A DNA stretch of 64,000 nucleotides from positions 63,798,001 through 63,862,000 of the forward strand of contig OX597820.1 in the NCBI GenBank assembly GCA_951406725.2, in the 5' to 3' direction. The position numbers and the translations under genes are program-made. Positions 34,663 through 43,339 of the stretch are shown here, in pieces. Position 1 is the first letter of the stretch. Every line of letters begins with the position of its first letter. The stretch comes from Octopus vulgaris. Its lineage: Eukaryota. The notes below the pieces were generated by a model. The model saw only the letters and a program-made list of their open reading frames with translations, did no database searches and had not been told where the DNA came from.

Positions 34663-34994
34663 TATGCGTGTGCCTGTATTAATATAGATATACATATATA
34701 CACACATATAAACACATATGCACACACACTGATTGTATTTTTCTGTAAGATCAACAAAGAAATTTCTCCATATAAGGCATTTTTGGAATAATGCTTATTT
34801 TAATAATAACATTTAGTGAGTGATTCTGGCGATTCTGGTATGAGTTTCAAGCTTCAGATAACCCTTTCAAACTGAAAAATGTATGTTTTACTGGTTGCTT
34901 AAATATCACAGATTTTTTTCTTACGAGTATACTCACGAAACAATATGCACAAGGAAGTGGAATAAATATGAATATACACAAAATCATGTGTGTA

Positions 34995-35083
<89 letters not shown>

Positions 35084-35294
35084 GTAAGAAGGAGGAGAAG
35101 AAAAAGAAGAAGAAAAAGAAGAAGAAAAAGAAGAAGAAGTAAAAGAAGAAGAAAAGAAGAAGAAGAAGACGAAGAAGAAGAAGATCAAGAAGAAGAAGAA
35201 GAAGAAGAAGAAGAAGAAGAAGAAGAAGAAGAAGAAGAAGAAGAAGAAGAAGAAGAAGATCAAGAAGAAGAGTACGAGGAGAAGGAACTTTCAT

Positions 35295-35768
35295 TTTGAT
35301 TTGAACTTTCATTTCTTCCACACCTTACATAGCAAAGAAACATACCCTTCAATATAGCAAAACGAATTTGCACTACAGTAACAGATGTAGAAAAATGGGA
35401 TAAAAGATTACAAGAATTAAAGATATTTCTAAAACAACAAAAGTATTCTGCGAGATTAATGGACACAGCAATTACCAAAGCAAAAAAACATCAGAATTAC
35501 AGACCTCAGAGGAAAACAAACACACGGACCCAAGAAATCCCGACATTATCCATATTGCAAAAAGGTCTCTCTCAGTTCTCCAACATTCAACAAAACTGAA
35601 CAAATTTATAACAGATTCAAAAATAATTTATAGCAGACGTCAAGCACCCACCCTAAAAGAGCTCTTAACTCAAGCAAGATTTACAACTTTACGAAAAAAC
35701 AAAGAGAGTTCAAAAATATGATGATCCTCGTTGTGGAACATGTGATTAAATTGATGAAGGAGAACAAA
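35295..35768 (+). mobile_element. Penelope-like element fragment (RT thumb and linker, truncated before GIY-YIG)
   Basis: RNIPFNIAKRICTTVTD..RLQELKIFLKQQKY, PRNPDI..IIYSRRQAPTLKELLTQARF and QKYDDPRCGTC, the Cys motif that precedes the PLE endonuclease. Frameshifts present. Confidence 0.8.
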
Positions 35769-36515
35769 GCGGTTCTGTGGATTTCAGTTATTTGGGTTTT
35801 CTTCATATACTTTTCGGCCGTCTTGCCACTCTTTCTAACGAAAATCAGCGTTGGTTTCGGTATAGTGACAAGTCTGATGAGCCTTCTTTTTCTGCCAACA
35901 TTTTTCGTCACTGAACTGGCCGACCCCGTCGATCCGGTGTCTCGCATTGGCCGTTCGATGCCGGATGGAGAACCTGTTGAATTGTCAGCACTTTTGAAAG
36001 TCGCCATAAAATACGACGAAGACCTTCGTTACTGCGCCAAGTGCGGCACTTACGTGTGTGGATCGTCCTACCACTGCCCGATCTGTCAGAAATGTGTCCT
36101 CCTCTTCGACCACCATTGTATTTGGCTGAACAATTGCATCGGAAGTCGCAACTACGCCTGTTTCATTATTAGTTCCAGCTCAGCCTTCATCCTGTCTGCT
36201 ACAGTTTTCACCAGCACTCTGGTTATTATGTCAGAGCGTATCCATTCTATCCTGTTAGTCGGTTGATGGAAATTTATGTGCCGTTACGCAACTGAGCGCA
36301 ATTCTTTACCCACCTTCGAAATTCTCTTTATTCGCTGTCGACCTGACGTCTCGTTAGCACTGGTATGTGCCACCTAGATCTTGGTTTTCGTTATAATGAT
36401 TCTCCTTCTGTGTTTGATTATCTTCCACTTTTATTTGATGTGCCACAACACGACCACGCTGGAGTACATACGCCAGATACGTAACTATCCGGTTCGTGCT
36501 CTTTGGAATACATGA
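35769..36515 (+). pseudogene. DHHC palmitoyltransferase, ZDHHC1/11-like, 5'-truncated, no obvious introns, two internal in-frame stops
   Basis: Two TM helices then DPVD, and a DHHC cysteine-rich domain CAKC..HCPICQKCVLLFDHHCIWLNNCIGSRNY. The same frame continues past TGA 36264 and TAG 36375 into TM4 and FHFYLMCHNTTTLEYI (TTxE motif), ending at TGA 36513-36515. Confidence 0.85.
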
Positions 36516-36982
36516 TATGGTCGAAAAGAAAATCCGGTACACAAAAGATACAAGATACAAGAATATGCCATCATCTTTTTCTTTGGCTCTGGTTTGTGTA
36601 TTTATTCCTCTCTAATATTCCACACACACTATAATTGTTGTTCCAGATAATTAAAACAATTCATCTCTTAAGAATTTACTTCTTTCGATTTAATGAGGAA
36701 CAAAATTAAAATTTATAATACGGAAACGCTAAAAACGAAATCCAGATTTAATTCCAGGAATATCTTTACTCAAACAGTAATTCTTTCTCAAATTCTTCCA
36801 TCAAATATCATTGGTTTCTAACAAGGAATTTTATAAACCAAATTACTTTGGGACATTTCTTTTCTTGCTTACATTGTTACATGATTTTGTTTTTTTTTAT
36901 TCCGAATAAAATGGCAAATATTTTCAAATCTAGAAATAGTTTAACATTTACTTAAATTCTATATACTGCCACCACCACCACC

Positions 36983-37056
<74 letters not shown>

Positions 37057-37109
37057 TATCATTATTATTATTATTATAATTATTATTATTTTTATTATTA
37101 TTATTATTA

Positions 37110-37561
37110 TTGGTATGAGAGAGCAGTAAATGCCATCAAAGTGACGTGACACTGGGTTAAAATATACGAAGCCCAGTATACCCATCATGACTATCCGTCT
37201 GATAAGCATACACTGGGCACATGCATCACTACCATATGTGCGCGACATGATGATCTCATATCTAGATAAACAGCGCATGGCCTTGCAGGTGGGGCCCACT
37301 TAAAATTTTCTTGTGGTCGGGTAACCCATCCTGCTCAAAAGGTCCCTGAATAAGGGTTGTTTGAGGATGTTGAACGAAACACCCATGTTTCCAGAGGTAA
37401 ATTATTCAAACCCCAAAGAATCCCTCTCAACACATGGCTATGATGCTCCCCAACTACTTCTGCTCGTAATCAGAGATGCACACATCCTCAGCCACCAAGG
37501 GACATGCTCAAACCGATTAAGGTCAAACAAATGACAAGCAAATCTGTGGTATTGAGCAGAA
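37110..37561 (-). mobile_element. Non-coding interspersed repeat in (TAA)n, homologous to 19783-20135
   Basis: See the 19783 entry. On the minus strand it ends ...CTGCTCTCTCATACC-AATAATAAT, with ATT repeats on both flanks. Confidence 0.75.
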
Positions 37562-37603
<42 letters not shown>

Positions 37604-37604
37604 A

Positions 37605-37816
37605 GGCGGTGAGCTGGCAGAATCGTTAGCACGCCAGGCGAAATACTTGGCGGTATTTCGTCTACCGCTACGTTCTGAGTTCAAATTCCGCCGATATCGA
37701 CTTTGCCTTTCATCCTTTCGGGGTCGATGGATTAAGTACCAGTGAAACACTGGAGTCGATGTAATCGACTAGTCCTCTCCCCCACACATTTCAGGCCTGT
37801 GCCTATAGTAGAAAGG

Positions 37817-37884
<68 letters not shown>

Positions 37885-38028
37885 GGAGGCGAGCTGGCAG
37901 AATCGTTAGCGCGCCGGGCGGAATACTTAGCGGTATTTCGTCTGCCGGTACGTTCTGAGTTCAAATTCCGCCGAGGTCGACTTTGCCTGTCATCCTTTCG
38001 GGGTCGATAAATTAATTACCAGTTGCGC
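37605..38028 (+). mobile_element. Two SINE copies (GGCGGCGAGCTGGCAGAA family) separated by (ATT)n
   Basis: Heads at 37605 and 37885, core GACTTTGCCTTTCATCCTTTCGGGGTCGAT. Confidence 0.9.
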
Positions 38029-38299
38029 AAAATAAATGCAAATATAAATTGGAAATCGAGAAACATTATTTACTGTGCCACATACCCGAATGCAAAGAAC
38101 ACCACATTGGTGAAACGGGCGTTGGACTATATGAGAAAGTAAGGGTACATAAACAACAAATCCAAGACTCCTCCATTAGAAACACAAGTGCGCATGCGTG
38201 AAATTAAAAGTATAATATGGCTATAATTTAACCCATCGCATCCTTTTCGTTTGTATGTATATATGTGTATATATGCATGGGCAGTCACCATGATAGATC

Positions 38300-38485
38300 G
38301 GTAACCAATACACATATTTTTTCTCGCCTTGTTTCTCGCCTTGTTTTTTTTTTCTGTGGCCCTTTCTGTAGAAGAGCGTAGGCTCGAAACGTAAAAGATT
38401 TTTTTAATTCCTGAGCGTTATACTATTACATCTGTTTGTTTTGCACACCGCCTCTCTTCGTCTTTTGTTTTTTTTTCGTGAACTC
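38300..38485 (+). mobile_element. Short non-autonomous repeat with a variant hammerhead motif, homologous to 49700-49900 (minus)
   Basis: 38362-38397 reads CTTT-CTGTAGA-A-GAGC-gtag-GCTC-GAAAC-GTA-AAAG. The flanks (TTCCTGAGCG..TACT..TGTTTGTTTG..CACC..CTTCGTCTTTTGTTT) match the reverse complement of ~49705-49825. Confidence 0.65.
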
Positions 38486-38506
38486 TCTCTCTCTAACTTT
38501 CTCTCT

Positions 38507-38540
<34 letters not shown>

Positions 38541-38661
38541 ACATATATATATATATATGATAAAAATAGTAAGACAACAAAAGAATGAAAGCGACTTCGA
38601 TATTATGTAAATGGGAGAATTTATTCGTAAATGTAATATGTGGCAATTATCCGGGAGCCAT

Positions 38662-38818: not shown

Positions 38819-38967
38819 AAATAAATATAAAGTGGTATATATGGCTCACTCTAGCACCAGTTAATCAAAAGGTTTCAACCACTAAAAATACATGTTTCCC
38901 ATGAAAGTCAGTACGATTGTTAGCTCACACGGACAGGGCAAATAAAAAATAACAAAAATACAGATTA

Positions 38968-39049
38968 TTTTGGGACAATTGTTTCGCTATTAATGAATTA
39001 AATGTAATTTTACTTACAAAAAAATCCACTTGTAGCTCGTCAGCCAAAA
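38968..39049 (-). ncRNA. Type I hammerhead ribozyme (inverted copy)
   Basis: Reverse complement of the motif at 39330-39412. Confidence 0.8.
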
Positions 39050-39329
39050 CTATCTGGATGAAATCAACTCAATCACACGCCAGATTTTACCATAACGATA
39101 AATACGCGTGTGGTTCAATTGATTACATCCGACGTTATAATTCAAATGCCCCAACTAACAGCGCGCCAAACTTTCACGGAAAACAAATACAGCATTTAGG
39201 CCACTTGGTGTTGAATGGATATACTATTAAATTAGTATCTAATTCTCTCACCCTTATTAATTAATTATAATTATGCTGCATTTATTTCTAAATGCTGTAT
39301 TTGTGATTGAGTGGATTTCATCCAGATAG

Positions 39330-39412
39330 TTTTGGCTGACGAGCTACAAGTGGATTTTTTTTGTAAGTAAAATTACATTTAATTCATTAATAGCGAAACA
39401 ATTGTCCCAAAA
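39330..39412 (+). ncRNA. Type I hammerhead ribozyme
   Basis: TTTTGG-CTGACGA-GCTA-[44 nt]-TAGC-GAAAC-AATT-GTC-CCAAAA: intact core, 6-bp stem I, palindromic stem III ACAATTGT, GUC triplet. Confidence 0.85.
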
Positions 39413-39866
39413 TAATCTGTATTTTTGTTATTTTTTATTTGCCCTGTCCGTGTGAGCTAACAATCGTACTGACTTTCATGGGAAACATGTATTTTTAGTG
39501 GTTGAAACCTTTTGGATTAACTGGTGCTAGAGTGAGCCATATAGTGACCACTCTCTTATATTTATTTTGTAAAAATATTATAATATATTATAAAATATTA
39601 TAATAATCCAGGTTTCTCGGAGCTCTAGGCCACTTGGTGTTGAATGGATATACTATTAAATTAGTATCTAATTCTCTCACCCTTATTAATTAATTATAAT
39701 TATGCTGCATTTATTTCTAAATGCTGTATTTGTTTTCCGTGAAAGTTTGGCGCGCTGTTAGTTGGGGCATTTGAATTATAACGTCGGATGTAATCAATTG
39801 AACCACACGCGTATTTATCGTTATGGTAAAATCTGGCGTGTGATTGAGTGGATTTCATCCAGATAG

Positions 39867-39948
39867 TTTTGGCTGACGAGCTACAAGTGGATTTTTTTGT
39901 AAGTAAAATTACATTTAATTCATTAATAGCGAAACAATTGTCCCAAAA
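39867..39948 (+). ncRNA. Type I hammerhead ribozyme (second direct copy)
   Basis: Same motif as 39330-39412, differing only in T-run length. Confidence 0.85.
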
Positions 39949-40230
39949 TAATCTGTATTTTTGTTATTTTTTATTTGCCCTGTCCGTGTGAGCTAACAAT
40001 CGTACTGACTTTCATGGGAAACATGTATTTTTAGTGGTTGAAACCTTTTGGATTAACTGGTGCTAGAGTGAGCCATATAGTGACCACTCTCTTATATTTA
40101 TTTTGTAAAAATATTATGATATATTATAAAATATTATAATAATCCAGGTTTCTCGGAGCACTAGGCCACTTGGTGTTGAATGGATATACTATTAAATTAG
40201 TATCTAATTCTCTCACCCTTATTAATTAAT

Positions 40231-40265
<35 letters not shown>

Positions 40266-40293
40266 ATATGTATATATGTATATATATATATAT

Positions 40294-41204
40294 ATAACAT
40301 AAGGGACATTAGCCAACTGAATATGGCTAGGGACAGGGCAGGGTGGTGGGGGTGTCACTGTTGCATTTAGCCCCAGACGAACATCAACGTCACCAGATAG
40401 GCCGACGCCATCACGGCGTCCTCTACTTTGCAAAGGGAGATCATTCCCCAAGAAGCGAATGCCACATACGGACCTAGGTTTCAAGGTGTATTGCCTATTA
40501 TCAACGTATGGTAGGCACCGCTTCTCAACGAACAACTCACCGTGCAAGATATATATAAAGATTTTCAAGTAAATACATTTACTGATTTCGAAAATCTGTT
40601 CGACAGCAATAATAATTCTCTAAATGAGATATAAACAGTGACTGCTCCATAACATAAGGGACATTAGCCAACTGAATATGGCTAGGGACAGGGCAGGGTG
40701 GTGGGGGTGTCACTGTTGCATTTAGCCCCAGGTGAACATCAACGTCACCAGATAGGCCGACGCCATCACGGCGTCCTCTATCTTGCAAAGGGAGATCATT
40801 CCCCAAGAAGCGGATGCCACATACGGACCTAGGTTTCAAGGTGTATTGCCTATTATCAACGTATGGTAGGCACCGCTTCTCGACGAACAACTCACCGTGC
40901 AAGATATATATAAAGATTTTCAAGTAAATACATTTACTGATTTCGAAAATCTGTTCGACAGCAATAATAATTCTCTAAATGAGATATAGACAGTGACTGC
41001 TCCATAACATAAGGGACATTAGCCAACTGAATATGGCTAGGGACAGGGCAGGGTGGTGGGGGTGTCACTGTTGCATTTAGCCCCAGGCGAACATCAACGT
41101 CACCAGATAGGCCGACGCCATCACGGCGTCCTCTATCTTGCAAAGGGAGATCATTCCCCAAGAAGCGGATGCCACATACGGACCTAGGTTTCAAGGTTTA
41201 TTGC
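40294..41204. repeat. 355-bp tandem repeat, ~2.6 near-identical units
   Basis: ATAACATAAGGGAC at 40294, 40649 and 41004 (period 355). Flanked by TA/CA microsatellites. Confidence 0.95.
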
Positions 41205-41287
<83 letters not shown>

Positions 41288-43339
41288 GCATGTTTATGTA
41301 TGTGTAGTTATGTGTGAGTGGGTATAGGTGGTGTAGATGTATATATGTATGTATATGCATATATTTGTATATGTGTCTGTATGTATATATGCATATATAT
41401 ATATGTGTGTGTGTGTGTATTTGTATATATATGTATATGTATATATATTTATAAGTATATATGTACATCCCTTATTCTTGATGGACTTAAGTCTCCTTCC
41501 CCCTCTGTTCTCCGTTGCCAGCGGTCTTATCTTTATTCACATCTTTATCGTATTTTTATCTTTATTTCAATTACTCATTTCTTTTTTCTTTCTTTCTTTC
41601 TTTCTTACTTTGTTTCTTTGCTTCTTTCTATCTTTCTTCTTCTTCTTTAACTTCTCTATTTTTTTTCATATATTCACCCCGTTTTTTGTGTATATGTTTT
41701 TTGTGTCTATAATTGCAGTAAAAAAAATTCTGTGCTATTTAAATAACCATTAAAACATACATTTTTCAGTTTGGAAAACGGCTATTTGAAACTTGAAACT
41801 CATACCTGAATCACACACTGTAAACATTATCAATACAAGAAAGACATCTCTACTATTTTTTTAAATACATAATACTGTACCATGAACTTTTTTTTATATG
41901 CTACTATATGTGTGTGTGTGTGTATGTGTAATGATATTGGGCGTGTGCACATGAACACATTTACATGACGTAAACAGACGGAAGCCAAGAATTGATTTGG
42001 TCAAGAAAATATTTTGTTTAGACGGCATAATAACCATTTTATCAGGTAGTTGTTAAGTCTCATAGTAGCAACAAGATTCTATTGCCGTTTGCCCCATCAA
42101 ATAGATGTTAAGTTTTATGACAGTAGTAGCGGATTTTCTTTAAACAGACATTAAATGTCTGGACACTGAGACTTATAGCGTATTTATCTAAAGTCCAAAT
42201 ATTTATCATTATATCTTTGAGCTACTCACGGATTTCTTCTTTATGTATTTTTCCTAGCTACACCCATTCCTACACACACGCACGTGCTCGCACACTCACA
42301 TCCACCTACCCAAACACACAGATACTTATTCGCAGATATCATCGTTAGTATATTTACTTTATCTTGCCTACTAAAAAGAAATTCATTTAAGATAATGGCA
42401 AATGAATCTATATACACGCACATTTTAAAGTTTAATGTTCGTATCTATACACTCATAGATAAGAGTACATCTCCAGTTGAGCTCCAACCGATACACCCAT
42501 ATACTCAAACCTAATGATTATTGATTATTCAAGTATAAATACATCTGGACAAAAGAAGTTGAATTGTTACAGCATCTACTAGGCAGCTATTTTCAAGATC
42601 CTTAAATGTTGATGTTCGTGTAAATCGAAATGTTTTGTGTTGGTGAATCCTTTCAAAAGGGTTTCAGTTATTAAGTACCATTAATCACATGAAGTCTTTC
42701 GGGGTTATAATGGACATAAATAGTTTGTACTTCCGGTGGAAATATAAAACCATTAAGAAAGTGATATCAAAATCTCCTCATTTTGTTTATGTTTTTACTT
42801 TTTGCTGATAAAGTCCGAATAATTCGAATCGTAGTAACATTCAATCCAAAACATTTTCTTTCATTCCAGCGTGAAACTAATGTGTCGACATCATGTTTCC
42901 GTTATTGGTTTGCTTGTGGTGTTCTTAAGACACACAGTTTGATTTTCCACAATATTAGAATTAAATTATATCGTATGTATATATGTATGTATACACGTAC
43001 GTATGTATGTAGCAATCTATCTATCTATCTGCCAGTCTATCTCTACGTACATATGTGTATACATATTTCTCTGTTTAGAAGTGTATGTACCTATGTGCTT
43101 CAGAAAATTGAAATAACTAGAATTTACAAAATCTATACCTACATACATATAAAGAATTGTTTGTGTGTGTGTGTCTGTGAGTGTGTAAGTGTGTGTGTAT
43201 ATGCATAAATAAATATATGAATATATATATACATATATATATACATATATATACATATATATATATACACTTGTATACACTCATACACACATATATACAC
43301 ACACATATATATATATCTGCACATATACACACACACACG

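What the first reader, a model, noticed from the sequence alone, without database searches (positions are those of the whole stretch)
35295..36515. Penelope ORF fused to a divergent, apparently intronless ZDHHC1/11-like palmitoyltransferase
Seen: A-rich PLE coding sequence stops just after the CGTC motif, where the GIY-YIG domain should begin. At ~35769 it switches to visibly more GC/CpG-rich DNA that encodes all four TM helices, the DHHC domain and TTxE in one frame. A continuous ORF (35718-36266) starts at an ATG in an alternative PLE frame and runs into the DHHC part. No poly(A) is evident downstream. From recalled family features, the spacing xxVxW...LPL...DPxD and FHxYL..TTxEYI fits ZDHHC1/11, but the sequence seems much more diverged than a normal host orthologue. 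Inference: (a) mRNA captured by a PLE template switch, (b) horizontally acquired DNA, or (c) a chimeric join with DNA from a gene-compact parasite or symbiont, such as dicyemids or coccidians if the host is an octopus.
Basis: partly seen in the sequence, partly recalled or inferred. Interest (0 to 1): 0.75.

Follow-up and report, generated by a model that had tools for sequence, protein, structure and literature searches.

The report
Dead gene copy inside old retroelement
This is a broken, front-truncated copy of the octopus's own intron-free palmitoyltransferase gene sitting in the middle of an older jumping-gene relic, and it was likely pasted there from an RNA that ran on into a neighbouring short repeat; the copy is not foreign DNA or an assembly error, and it is an ordinary kind of event.

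Summary
The DHHC stretch is real, but it is a pseudogene. 35767-36971 is 95.5% identical to an intact single-exon host gene on contig C14, whose 281-aa protein matches annotated Octopus ZDHHC11-like records (100% and 96%). The copy lacks codons 1-33 and has two nonsense codons (36264, 36375). The Penelope element does not stop at 35768: its GIY-YIG part resumes at 38029, and in 17 of 20 sister copies the two halves lie 20-26 nt apart. So 2,260 bp were inserted into an older Penelope relic (closest sisters 87-88%). The left junction is bridged in 4 of 4 public runs. The copy runs past the parent's apparent poly(A) site into the SINE downstream of the parent, so no poly(A) is expected. Most likely a read-through RNA was reverse-transcribed from the SINE's (ATT)n tail (5' transduction); DNA-repair copying is the main rival. 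A recent foreign source and an assembly chimera are refuted, and a Penelope template switch is unlikely. The deep origin of the fast-evolving C14 parent is unresolved. The scan noted SINE-tailed gene copies before on other DNA (unchecked). Interest is low.

The parts
34780..34992 (-). Inverted piece of the Penelope-like element's downstream region (pLTR-like arrangement; the label is recalled), cut off from the rest by microsatellites
   Evidence: Matches sister copies either upstream in the same arrangement or downstream in inverted orientation
35299..35768 (+). Left half of an old, broken Penelope-like copy (end of RT region, linker, CxxC)
   Evidence: 69-77% over about 500 nt to sister loci, best 87% over the last 209 nt; sister translations run from an RT-like stretch into a GIY-YIG-like domain
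35718..36266 (+). Chance fusion ORF, 182 aa: 17 codons from another frame of the element, then DHHC codons 34-198; ends at a nonsense codon; no sign of expression
   Evidence: RNA-guess runs hold 0.22-0.26 of the words, close to the 0.30 that the parent alone would give
35767..35768 (+). 2-nt microhomology (AA) at the left junction, shared by element and parent gene
35769..36515 (+). 5'-truncated pseudogene copy of the C14 ZDHHC11-like ORF (codons 34-281 and stop); nonsense codons at 36264-36266 and 36375-36377
   Evidence: 27 substitutions in 248 codons: 10 synonymous, 17 non-synonymous, of which 14 are derived in the window copy
36516..36971 (+). Copied 3' UTR with AATAAA (36905-36910) and 39 nt beyond the parent's apparent cleavage site (about 36932), without poly(A)
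   Evidence: 17 mismatches in 449 columns; 37 of 39 identical beyond 36932; parent contigs end 5 and 22 nt after the hexamer in 2 of 4 runs
36969..37112 (.). (CAC)n(CAT)n(TAT)n microsatellite, expanded against the short (ATT)n of the parent
37113..37565 (+). Very high-copy repeat inserted into the microsatellite; absent at the parent locus, so likely added later
   Evidence: a contig of another organism label crosses the parent's microsatellite without it (X18)
37604..37883 (+). SINE1: copy of the SINE directly downstream of the parent gene, with 3' tail and (ATT)n; likely the 3' end of the copied RNA
   Evidence: 94.6-94.9% to the parent's SINE against at most 90% for the other 24 SINE heads and 75-87% for the 10 of 12 subfamily controls that aligned over 125 nt or more
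37884..38028 (+). SINE2, cut off at its 3' side and joined to the element with 1 nt of microhomology; no counterpart at the parent locus
   Evidence: (loose ends at 38029)
38029..38187 (+). Right half of the same Penelope-like copy (GIY-YIG region, frameshifted); about 26 nt of the element are missing at the insertion site
   Evidence: 74-88% to sister loci, adjacent there to the left half

Best explanation
The stretch is a 5'-truncated, dead copy of the host's single-exon ZDHHC11-like gene inserted into an older Penelope relic, and it likely arose when a read-through RNA from the gene ended in the neighbouring SINE and was reverse-transcribed from that SINE's tail by a LINE enzyme. Shown: the parent gene, the truncation at codon 34, the two nonsense codons, the split element with about 26 nt missing, and the extension of homology past the poly(A) signal into the SINE. 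Inferred: an RNA template; priming at the SINE's (ATT)n tail by a partner LINE reverse transcriptase (the LINE is not identified); joining at a 2-nt microhomology; then later events, namely a repeat inserted into the microsatellite and a deletion running from within SINE2 into the element, which would have removed the target-site duplication. The Penelope copy was a passive landing site. Rough age 5-7 million years.
For: Parent and copy. Split element: (17 of 20 sister loci with both halves have a 20-26-nt gap, 11 of 20 exactly 26). The element is older than the insert: 87-88% against 95.5%. The copy includes the parent's downstream SINE in sense orientation and ends in the window with a complete SINE tail plus (ATT)n. 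What follows at the parent locus is not SINE2 (7 of 28 mismatches, p 0.0004 against 5%), which puts the end of the copied unit at SINE1. One of 4 runs has contigs that go on through and beyond the SINE at the parent locus (X18, depth 56 against 853). The source is on another chromosome-scale contig and the unit is about 1.5 kb. Decay: 14 of 17 non-synonymous changes are in the window lineage, 2 in the parent, 1 ambiguous, not distinguishable from neutral (p 0.11-0.46). Precedent: 5' transduction from upstream promoters in SVA (PMC12593883, passages); stringent 3'-tail recognition by LINEs (PMC3747384, passages).
Against: The parent has no introns, so intron loss cannot show an RNA step. No target-site duplication of 6-15 nt was found, and the target lost about 26 nt with microhomology at both ends, which is also what DNA repair leaves. 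The parent's SINE now has a different 3' part from SINE1, so it is not shown that the donor carried that tail. SINE2 is 5.5% from a rough consensus, no younger-looking than the copying event, so the order of events on the right side is open. X18's kind is not on record and the other three runs are only guessed to be RNA. There is no A-to-G excess that would mark an RNA stage (5 A>G of 44 substitutions).
Confidence: 0.62

Rival explanations
1. DNA-level capture: a break in the Penelope relic was repaired by copying about 1.5-2 kb from the C14 locus (synthesis-dependent or microhomology-mediated repair), ending in or switching among SINE copies. The outcome is the same dead duplicate, made without a retroelement enzyme.
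For: Microhomology of 2 nt on the left and 1 nt on the right, about 26 nt of target lost, no target-site duplication, no poly(A), homology past the poly(A) site. The right end lies inside a SINE, not at a tail.
Against: The homology to the parent ends in a sense-oriented SINE that has a full tail in the window, and SINE2 has no counterpart at the parent. The copy starts inside the coding sequence and holds no DNA upstream of the transcribed unit.
Confidence: 0.27
2. One reading: a Penelope reverse transcriptase switched templates between the ZDHHC RNA and its own RNA, giving a fused element.
For: Both parts are on the same strand and the junction has a 2-nt microhomology.
Against: The same element copy continues after the insert in register, minus about 26 nt. 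It is 12-13% from its closest sisters while the insert is 4.5% from its parent. Only one such copy was found (2 matches: window and parent).
Confidence: 0.05
3. The window copy came from the host gene, but the C14 parent itself entered an octopod ancestor from a protist or parasite long ago, rather than being an old, fast-evolving retrogene of the spliced C20 gene.
For: The parent is single-exon. Beyond the Octopus cluster nothing in 1.84 billion representatives scores above E 1e-32, and full-length matches are about 28-35% identical. In a 21-row tree it joins a marine-eukaryote transcript and an unnamed sequence at 82/62 support; in a 60-row quick tree it joins another unnamed sequence outside the animal groups.
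Against: These are long-branch joins that changed between trees. A clade of C14 and C20 is not rejected (p-AU 0.075). Of the top ten further hits, 6 carry or share a cluster with animal ZDHHC1/11 names (abalone, periwinkle, sea spider, mink, tubeworm; the oyster entry is named only palmitoyltransferase), 1 is a protist Swf1-type protein and 3 are unnamed. The nearest Atlas cluster is mostly molluscan. Three other host DHHC genes are also single long ORFs.
Confidence: 0.06
4. One reading: recently acquired foreign DNA, or an assembly join with parasite or symbiont DNA.
For: Only the composition step at 35769.
Against: A host parent at 95.5% with Octopus orthologues. The junction is bridged by contigs in 4 of 4 runs (3 studies, 4 organism labels), at a depth like that of the single-copy parent in the three runs where both arms are listed. 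Host SINEs are part of the copied block.
Confidence: 0.005

Closest known systems
5'-truncated processed pseudogenes (LINE-made retrocopies); PMC3747384, passages seen
   Same: Promoterless, 5'-truncated, decaying copy of a host transcript on another chromosome-scale contig
   Different: No poly(A) and no target-site duplication; the parent has no introns to lose; the copy passes the poly(A) site and ends in a SINE
5' transduction by SVA elements in hominids; PMC12593883, passages seen
   Same: Host sequence upstream of a non-autonomous element is carried along, attributed there to transcription from an upstream promoter
   Different: Here the carrier would be an octopus SINE with an (ATT)n tail and the cargo most of a coding sequence; one copy only, no sign of further spread
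Octopus ZDHHC11-like palmitoyltransferase (XP_036364583.1, XP_014782575.1)
   Same: The C14 parent protein is identical to the first and 96% identical to the second; the window copy is 91% identical to the parent over residues 28-281
   Different: The window copy lacks codons 1-33 and has two nonsense codons
Penelope-like elements (RT plus GIY-YIG; architecture recalled)
   Same: The flanks are one copy of such a family, with at least 40 matches per half in this genome
   Different: The element is the interrupted target here, not the carrier

Membership tests
DHHC palmitoyltransferase (PF01529), ZDHHC1/11 subfamily | DHHC cysteine-rich domain above the Pfam cut-off | tested here: met
   73.6 bits (window) and 96.3 bits (parent) against a cut-off of 28.7
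DHHC palmitoyltransferase (PF01529), ZDHHC1/11 subfamily | Groups with ZDHHC1/11 proteins | tested here: met
   Inside a 48-row clade with named ZDHHC1/11 proteins, SH-aLRT 98 in a quick tree, on a long branch; position within the clade unresolved
Functional ZDHHC gene | Open frame through TM4 and TTxE, own start, expression | tested here: not met
   Two nonsense codons and 33 codons missing; no RNA-guess run holds more words than the parent explains
Processed pseudogene / retrocopy | Loss of introns against the parent | not testable with these tools
   The parent is single-exon
Processed pseudogene / retrocopy | Poly(A) tail at the parent's cleavage site | tested here: not met
   Homology continues 39 nt past about 36932 and into the SINE
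Processed pseudogene / retrocopy | Target-site duplication | tested here: not met
   None of 6-15 nt found; about 26 nt of target missing; a later deletion could have removed it
Processed pseudogene / retrocopy | 5' truncation within the transcribed unit, no promoter DNA | tested here: met
   Starts at codon 34
SINE-mediated 5' transduction | Cargo is the DNA directly upstream of a sense-oriented source SINE, and the copy includes that SINE | tested here: met
SINE-mediated 5' transduction | The copy ends at the SINE's 3' tail | tested here: inconclusive
   Tail and (ATT)n are present in the window, but the parent's SINE has another 3' part and SINE2 follows in the window
SINE-mediated 5' transduction | Read-through transcript that includes the SINE | tested here: inconclusive
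   1 of 4 runs, of unrecorded kind, has contigs through and past the SINE
SINE-mediated 5' transduction | Partner LINE shares the SINE's 3' tail | not tested
   No search for a partner LINE was run
Penelope-like element carrying captured cargo | Cargo inside a mobile unit of the same age, found at several loci | tested here: not met
   One copy; element older than the insert
Penelope-like element (flanks) | RT followed by a GIY-YIG endonuclease | tested here: inconclusive
   Sister translations show an RT-like stretch (motif recalled) followed by a GIY-YIG-like domain; Pfam GIY-YIG hit 2 of 4 pieces scanned, E 4e-4 and 0.015, both below the cut-off; no Pfam RT hit

The most novel reading that the evidence does not exclude
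Octopus SINEs lying just downstream of genes act as handles: read-through RNAs that end in a SINE tail are copied by tail-specific LINE enzymes, which makes SINE-led 5' transduction a recurring route of gene duplication in a SINE-rich genome. This locus would be one dated example, and the single-exon C14 parent, beside a spliced C20 paralogue, could be an older retrogene that survived.
Probability: 0.3. Interest if true: 0.45.

Novelty: new member of a known kind. Interest (0 to 1): 0.18.

Why it matters
As a single locus it matters little: it is a dead duplicate in a dead element, not a Penelope-host fusion gene and not foreign DNA. Its value is as a small clean case of how gene copies may arise without poly(A) in a genome where SINEs make up 11.6% of the DNA (figure for O. 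vulgaris in PMC13282606, passage seen). If many octopus gene copies end in the SINE that follows their parent, SINE-led transduction would be a measurable source of cephalopod gene duplicates. A side result is a fast-evolving, single-exon ZDHHC1/11 paralogue, seen so far only in Octopus records and one unnamed close relative, whose origin is open.

Tried and rejected
Penelope stops at CGTC: rejected, it resumes at 38029. Intronless means foreign: rejected, since 3 other host DHHC genes are single long ORFs. Composition as a sign of foreign DNA: rejected. A 30-nt SINE motif as a private marker of parent and copy: rejected, 144 exact matches in the genome; whole-head identity was used instead. 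A pattern from SINE2 matched only itself (1 match), which did not date it. ADAR-type A-to-G skew: none. Rfam scan of 34700-38600: 5 matches, all far below gathering scores. The first codon comparison was one codon out of register and its coding table was discarded; one search is the corrected run, and only the UTR, word-share and motif lines are used. Which nonsense codons the copy carries in other individuals cannot be read safely from the contigs, because the two paralogues collapse between 35984 and 36477. The right junction (38028/38029) is not among the listed bridged pieces; that table was cut, so this is no evidence either way. Trees did not resolve the parent's origin. A second homologue search with the 89%-identical unnamed relative gave 2 hits and no bridging cephalopod sequence. 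Paper searches: 'octopus, SINE, retrocopy' gave 0 papers; 'cephalopod, ZDHHC' gave 1 unrelated paper; searches listed no title on SINE-led transduction in cephalopods. Supplements were not read and could list such copies.

Full report
What is at the coordinates. The window switches at 35768/35769 from A-rich DNA (GC 33%, CpG o/e 0.55) to DNA of GC 46% and CpG o/e 1.15. The second part encodes a Pfam DHHC domain (73.6 bits). An ATG at 35718 opens a 182-aa ORF to 36266. The DHHC frame, however, holds two stops, at 36264-36266 and 36375-36377.

The source is a host gene. A DNA search of the genome with 35769-36950 gave 2 matches: the window and G000:C14:21206174-21207352(-). The alignment covers 35767-36971 at 1154 of 1209 columns (95.5%), with no gap in the coding part. 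The C14 copy has an open 281-aa frame. Its protein is identical to a record named ZDHHC11-like of Octopus sinensis and 96% identical to ZDHHC11 of O. bimaculoides; an unnamed 282-aa relative is 89% identical. In 4 of 4 runs laid on the parent locus (three guessed to be RNA, one of unrecorded kind) one contig covers the whole ORF and no joint is listed inside it, so the parent is single-exon. Three other DHHC genes of the genome are also single long ORFs. The parent ORF has the same composition as the copy.

The copy is decaying. Over 248 codons there are 10 synonymous and 17 non-synonymous differences. With the two outgroup proteins, 14 of the 17 fall on the window lineage (both stops included), 2 on the parent and 1 is ambiguous. 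Giving the window lineage 5 to 8 of the synonymous changes yields a ratio not distinguishable from neutral (p 0.11-0.46). At the rate implied by JC 0.09 = 25 million years (PMC13282606, section 7 read, there credited to an earlier study), 44 substitutions in 1198 columns or 14 in 572 non-synonymous sites give about 5-7 million years; this is rough.

The element was the target. Searches with the DNA left of the junction and with 38022-38260 each gave about 40 scored matches, best non-self identities 87% and 88%. I gave 28 fetched loci to a script; 6 were repeats of the same place, 2 held only the right half and 20 held both. In 17 of these 20 the halves are 20-26 nt apart, in 11 exactly 26; the other three gaps were 13, 298 and -11. 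In the window they are 2,260 bp apart and those 26 nt are missing. Sister copies read from an RT-like stretch through CxxC into a GIY-YIG-like domain (Pfam GIY-YIG in 2 of 4 pieces, below cut-off). The left junction has 2 nt of microhomology, the right 1 nt, and no target-site duplication was found. The element has diverged about three times as far from its sisters as the insert from its parent, so it was already old when the insert arrived.

The junction is real. Contigs of 4 of 4 DNA-type or unrecorded runs (3 studies, 4 organism labels) bridge 35768/35769 with more than 31 letters on each side; in the three runs where both paralogue arms are listed beside it, the depth is close to single copy. 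The 8 best holders have 0.60-0.72 of the stretch's words; 9 of the 10 further rows at 0.22-0.26 and above the small-share line, apart from one DNA-guess row at 0.26, include the RNA-guess runs, and their share is near the 0.30 expected from the parent alone. There is thus no sign that the copy or the fusion ORF is expressed. The right junction is not among the listed pieces.

The 3' end explains the missing poly(A). At the parent, contigs of 2 of 4 runs end 5 and 22 nt after AATAAA, a third ends earlier at low depth, and the fourth goes on through the microsatellite into the SINE and has a further contig beyond it. The window copy continues past that site (37 of 39 identical). After a microsatellite and a high-copy repeat that the parent lacks, it carries a SINE (37604 on) that is 94.6-94.9% identical to the SINE directly downstream of the parent. 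The other 24 SINE heads reach at most 90%; of 12 controls chosen for sharing a 30-nt subfamily motif (144 copies in the genome), 10 aligned at length, at 75-87%. In the window this SINE has a full tail and (ATT)n; the parent's has another 3' part. A second SINE follows in the window, cut at 38028; it does not match the remnant at the parent (7 of 28 mismatches).

How it most likely arose. A transcript from the C14 gene ran through its poly(A) signal and ended in the SINE tail. A LINE enzyme that recognises such tails copied it, stopped at codon 34 and joined the element at AA. Later a repeat entered the microsatellite, and a deletion from within SINE2 into the element removed the right boundary. 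The RNA step, the enzyme and the order of the later events are inferred (0.62). Copying at the DNA level during break repair fits the microhomologies and the target deletion and is not excluded (0.27). A Penelope template switch is unlikely (0.05). Precedents: 5' transduction from upstream promoters in SVA elements (PMC12593883, passages), stringent tail recognition by LINEs (PMC3747384, passages), and a role of 3' microsatellite-like repeats in RTE-type priming (PMC6007223, abstract only).

Why the protein looked too diverged. The genome has a normal spliced ZDHHC1/11 gene at C20:56.18-56.19 Mb, with at least 4 colinear exons matching an abalone protein; it groups with mollusc and annelid proteins. 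The C14 gene is a second, much faster paralogue, with full-length matches outside Octopus at about 28-35% identity. In trees of 60 and 21 rows (subsets of the 150 listed hits plus a few others) it lies within the ZDHHC1/11 group on a very long branch and joins different long branches each time. A clade with the C20 gene is not rejected (p-AU 0.075), nor is it shown. An old retrogene is the simpler reading; an old transfer into an octopod ancestor keeps about 0.06.

Novelty. This is a new member of known kinds (gene-copy pseudogene, probably 5' transduction). Searches found no paper on this gene or on this route in cephalopods. The scan's own notes list two similar cases on other DNA, a SINE-tailed Ku70 fragment in an octopus and SINE-tailed retrocopies in a shark; I reached my reading before seeing them and did not check them. 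Interest 0.18.

Noticed in passing
G000:C14:21206606-21207451(-) (L002:1933-2778): Intact single-exon, fast-evolving ZDHHC1/11 paralogue, conserved at 89-96% among close relatives but only about 30% identical to anything else; possibly an old retrogene of the C20 gene, origin unresolved.
   Followed up: partly
G000:C20:56179584-56190113(-) (L091-L093): Spliced canonical ZDHHC1/11 gene, at least 4 exons found by tblastn.
   Followed up: partly
L007:1270-2418(-), L009:883-2082(+), L010:1363-2076(-): Three more DHHC genes are single long ORFs in this genome (382, 399 and at least 237 aa), so intron-free DHHC genes are common here.
   Followed up: partly
P0019 (unnamed ENA protein, 292 aa): Similar in length and layout to the C14 protein and its sister in the quick tree (SH-aLRT 91, long branches meet); it could be a distant orthologue or a chance join.
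   Followed up: no
window 40294-41303: Three tandem copies of a 355-bp unit (98% and 73% over 300 nt); not examined for structure.
   Followed up: no
window 38953-40269: Nested near-perfect direct duplications (300 nt at 99%, spacing 536; 108 nt at 100%, spacing 429), either recent local rearrangement or an assembly feature.
   Followed up: no
window 35792-35966: Five substitutions of the copy in this assembly are absent from the copy allele in the public runs laid, so the pseudogene has gone on diverging between lineages; changes cluster in its first 200 nt (15 of 44).
   Followed up: partly
L002:1157-1285 and L061: A younger SINE-type segment appears to have replaced or entered the 3' part of older SINE copies at a fixed head motif, both at the parent locus and at an unrelated locus.
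   Followed up: no
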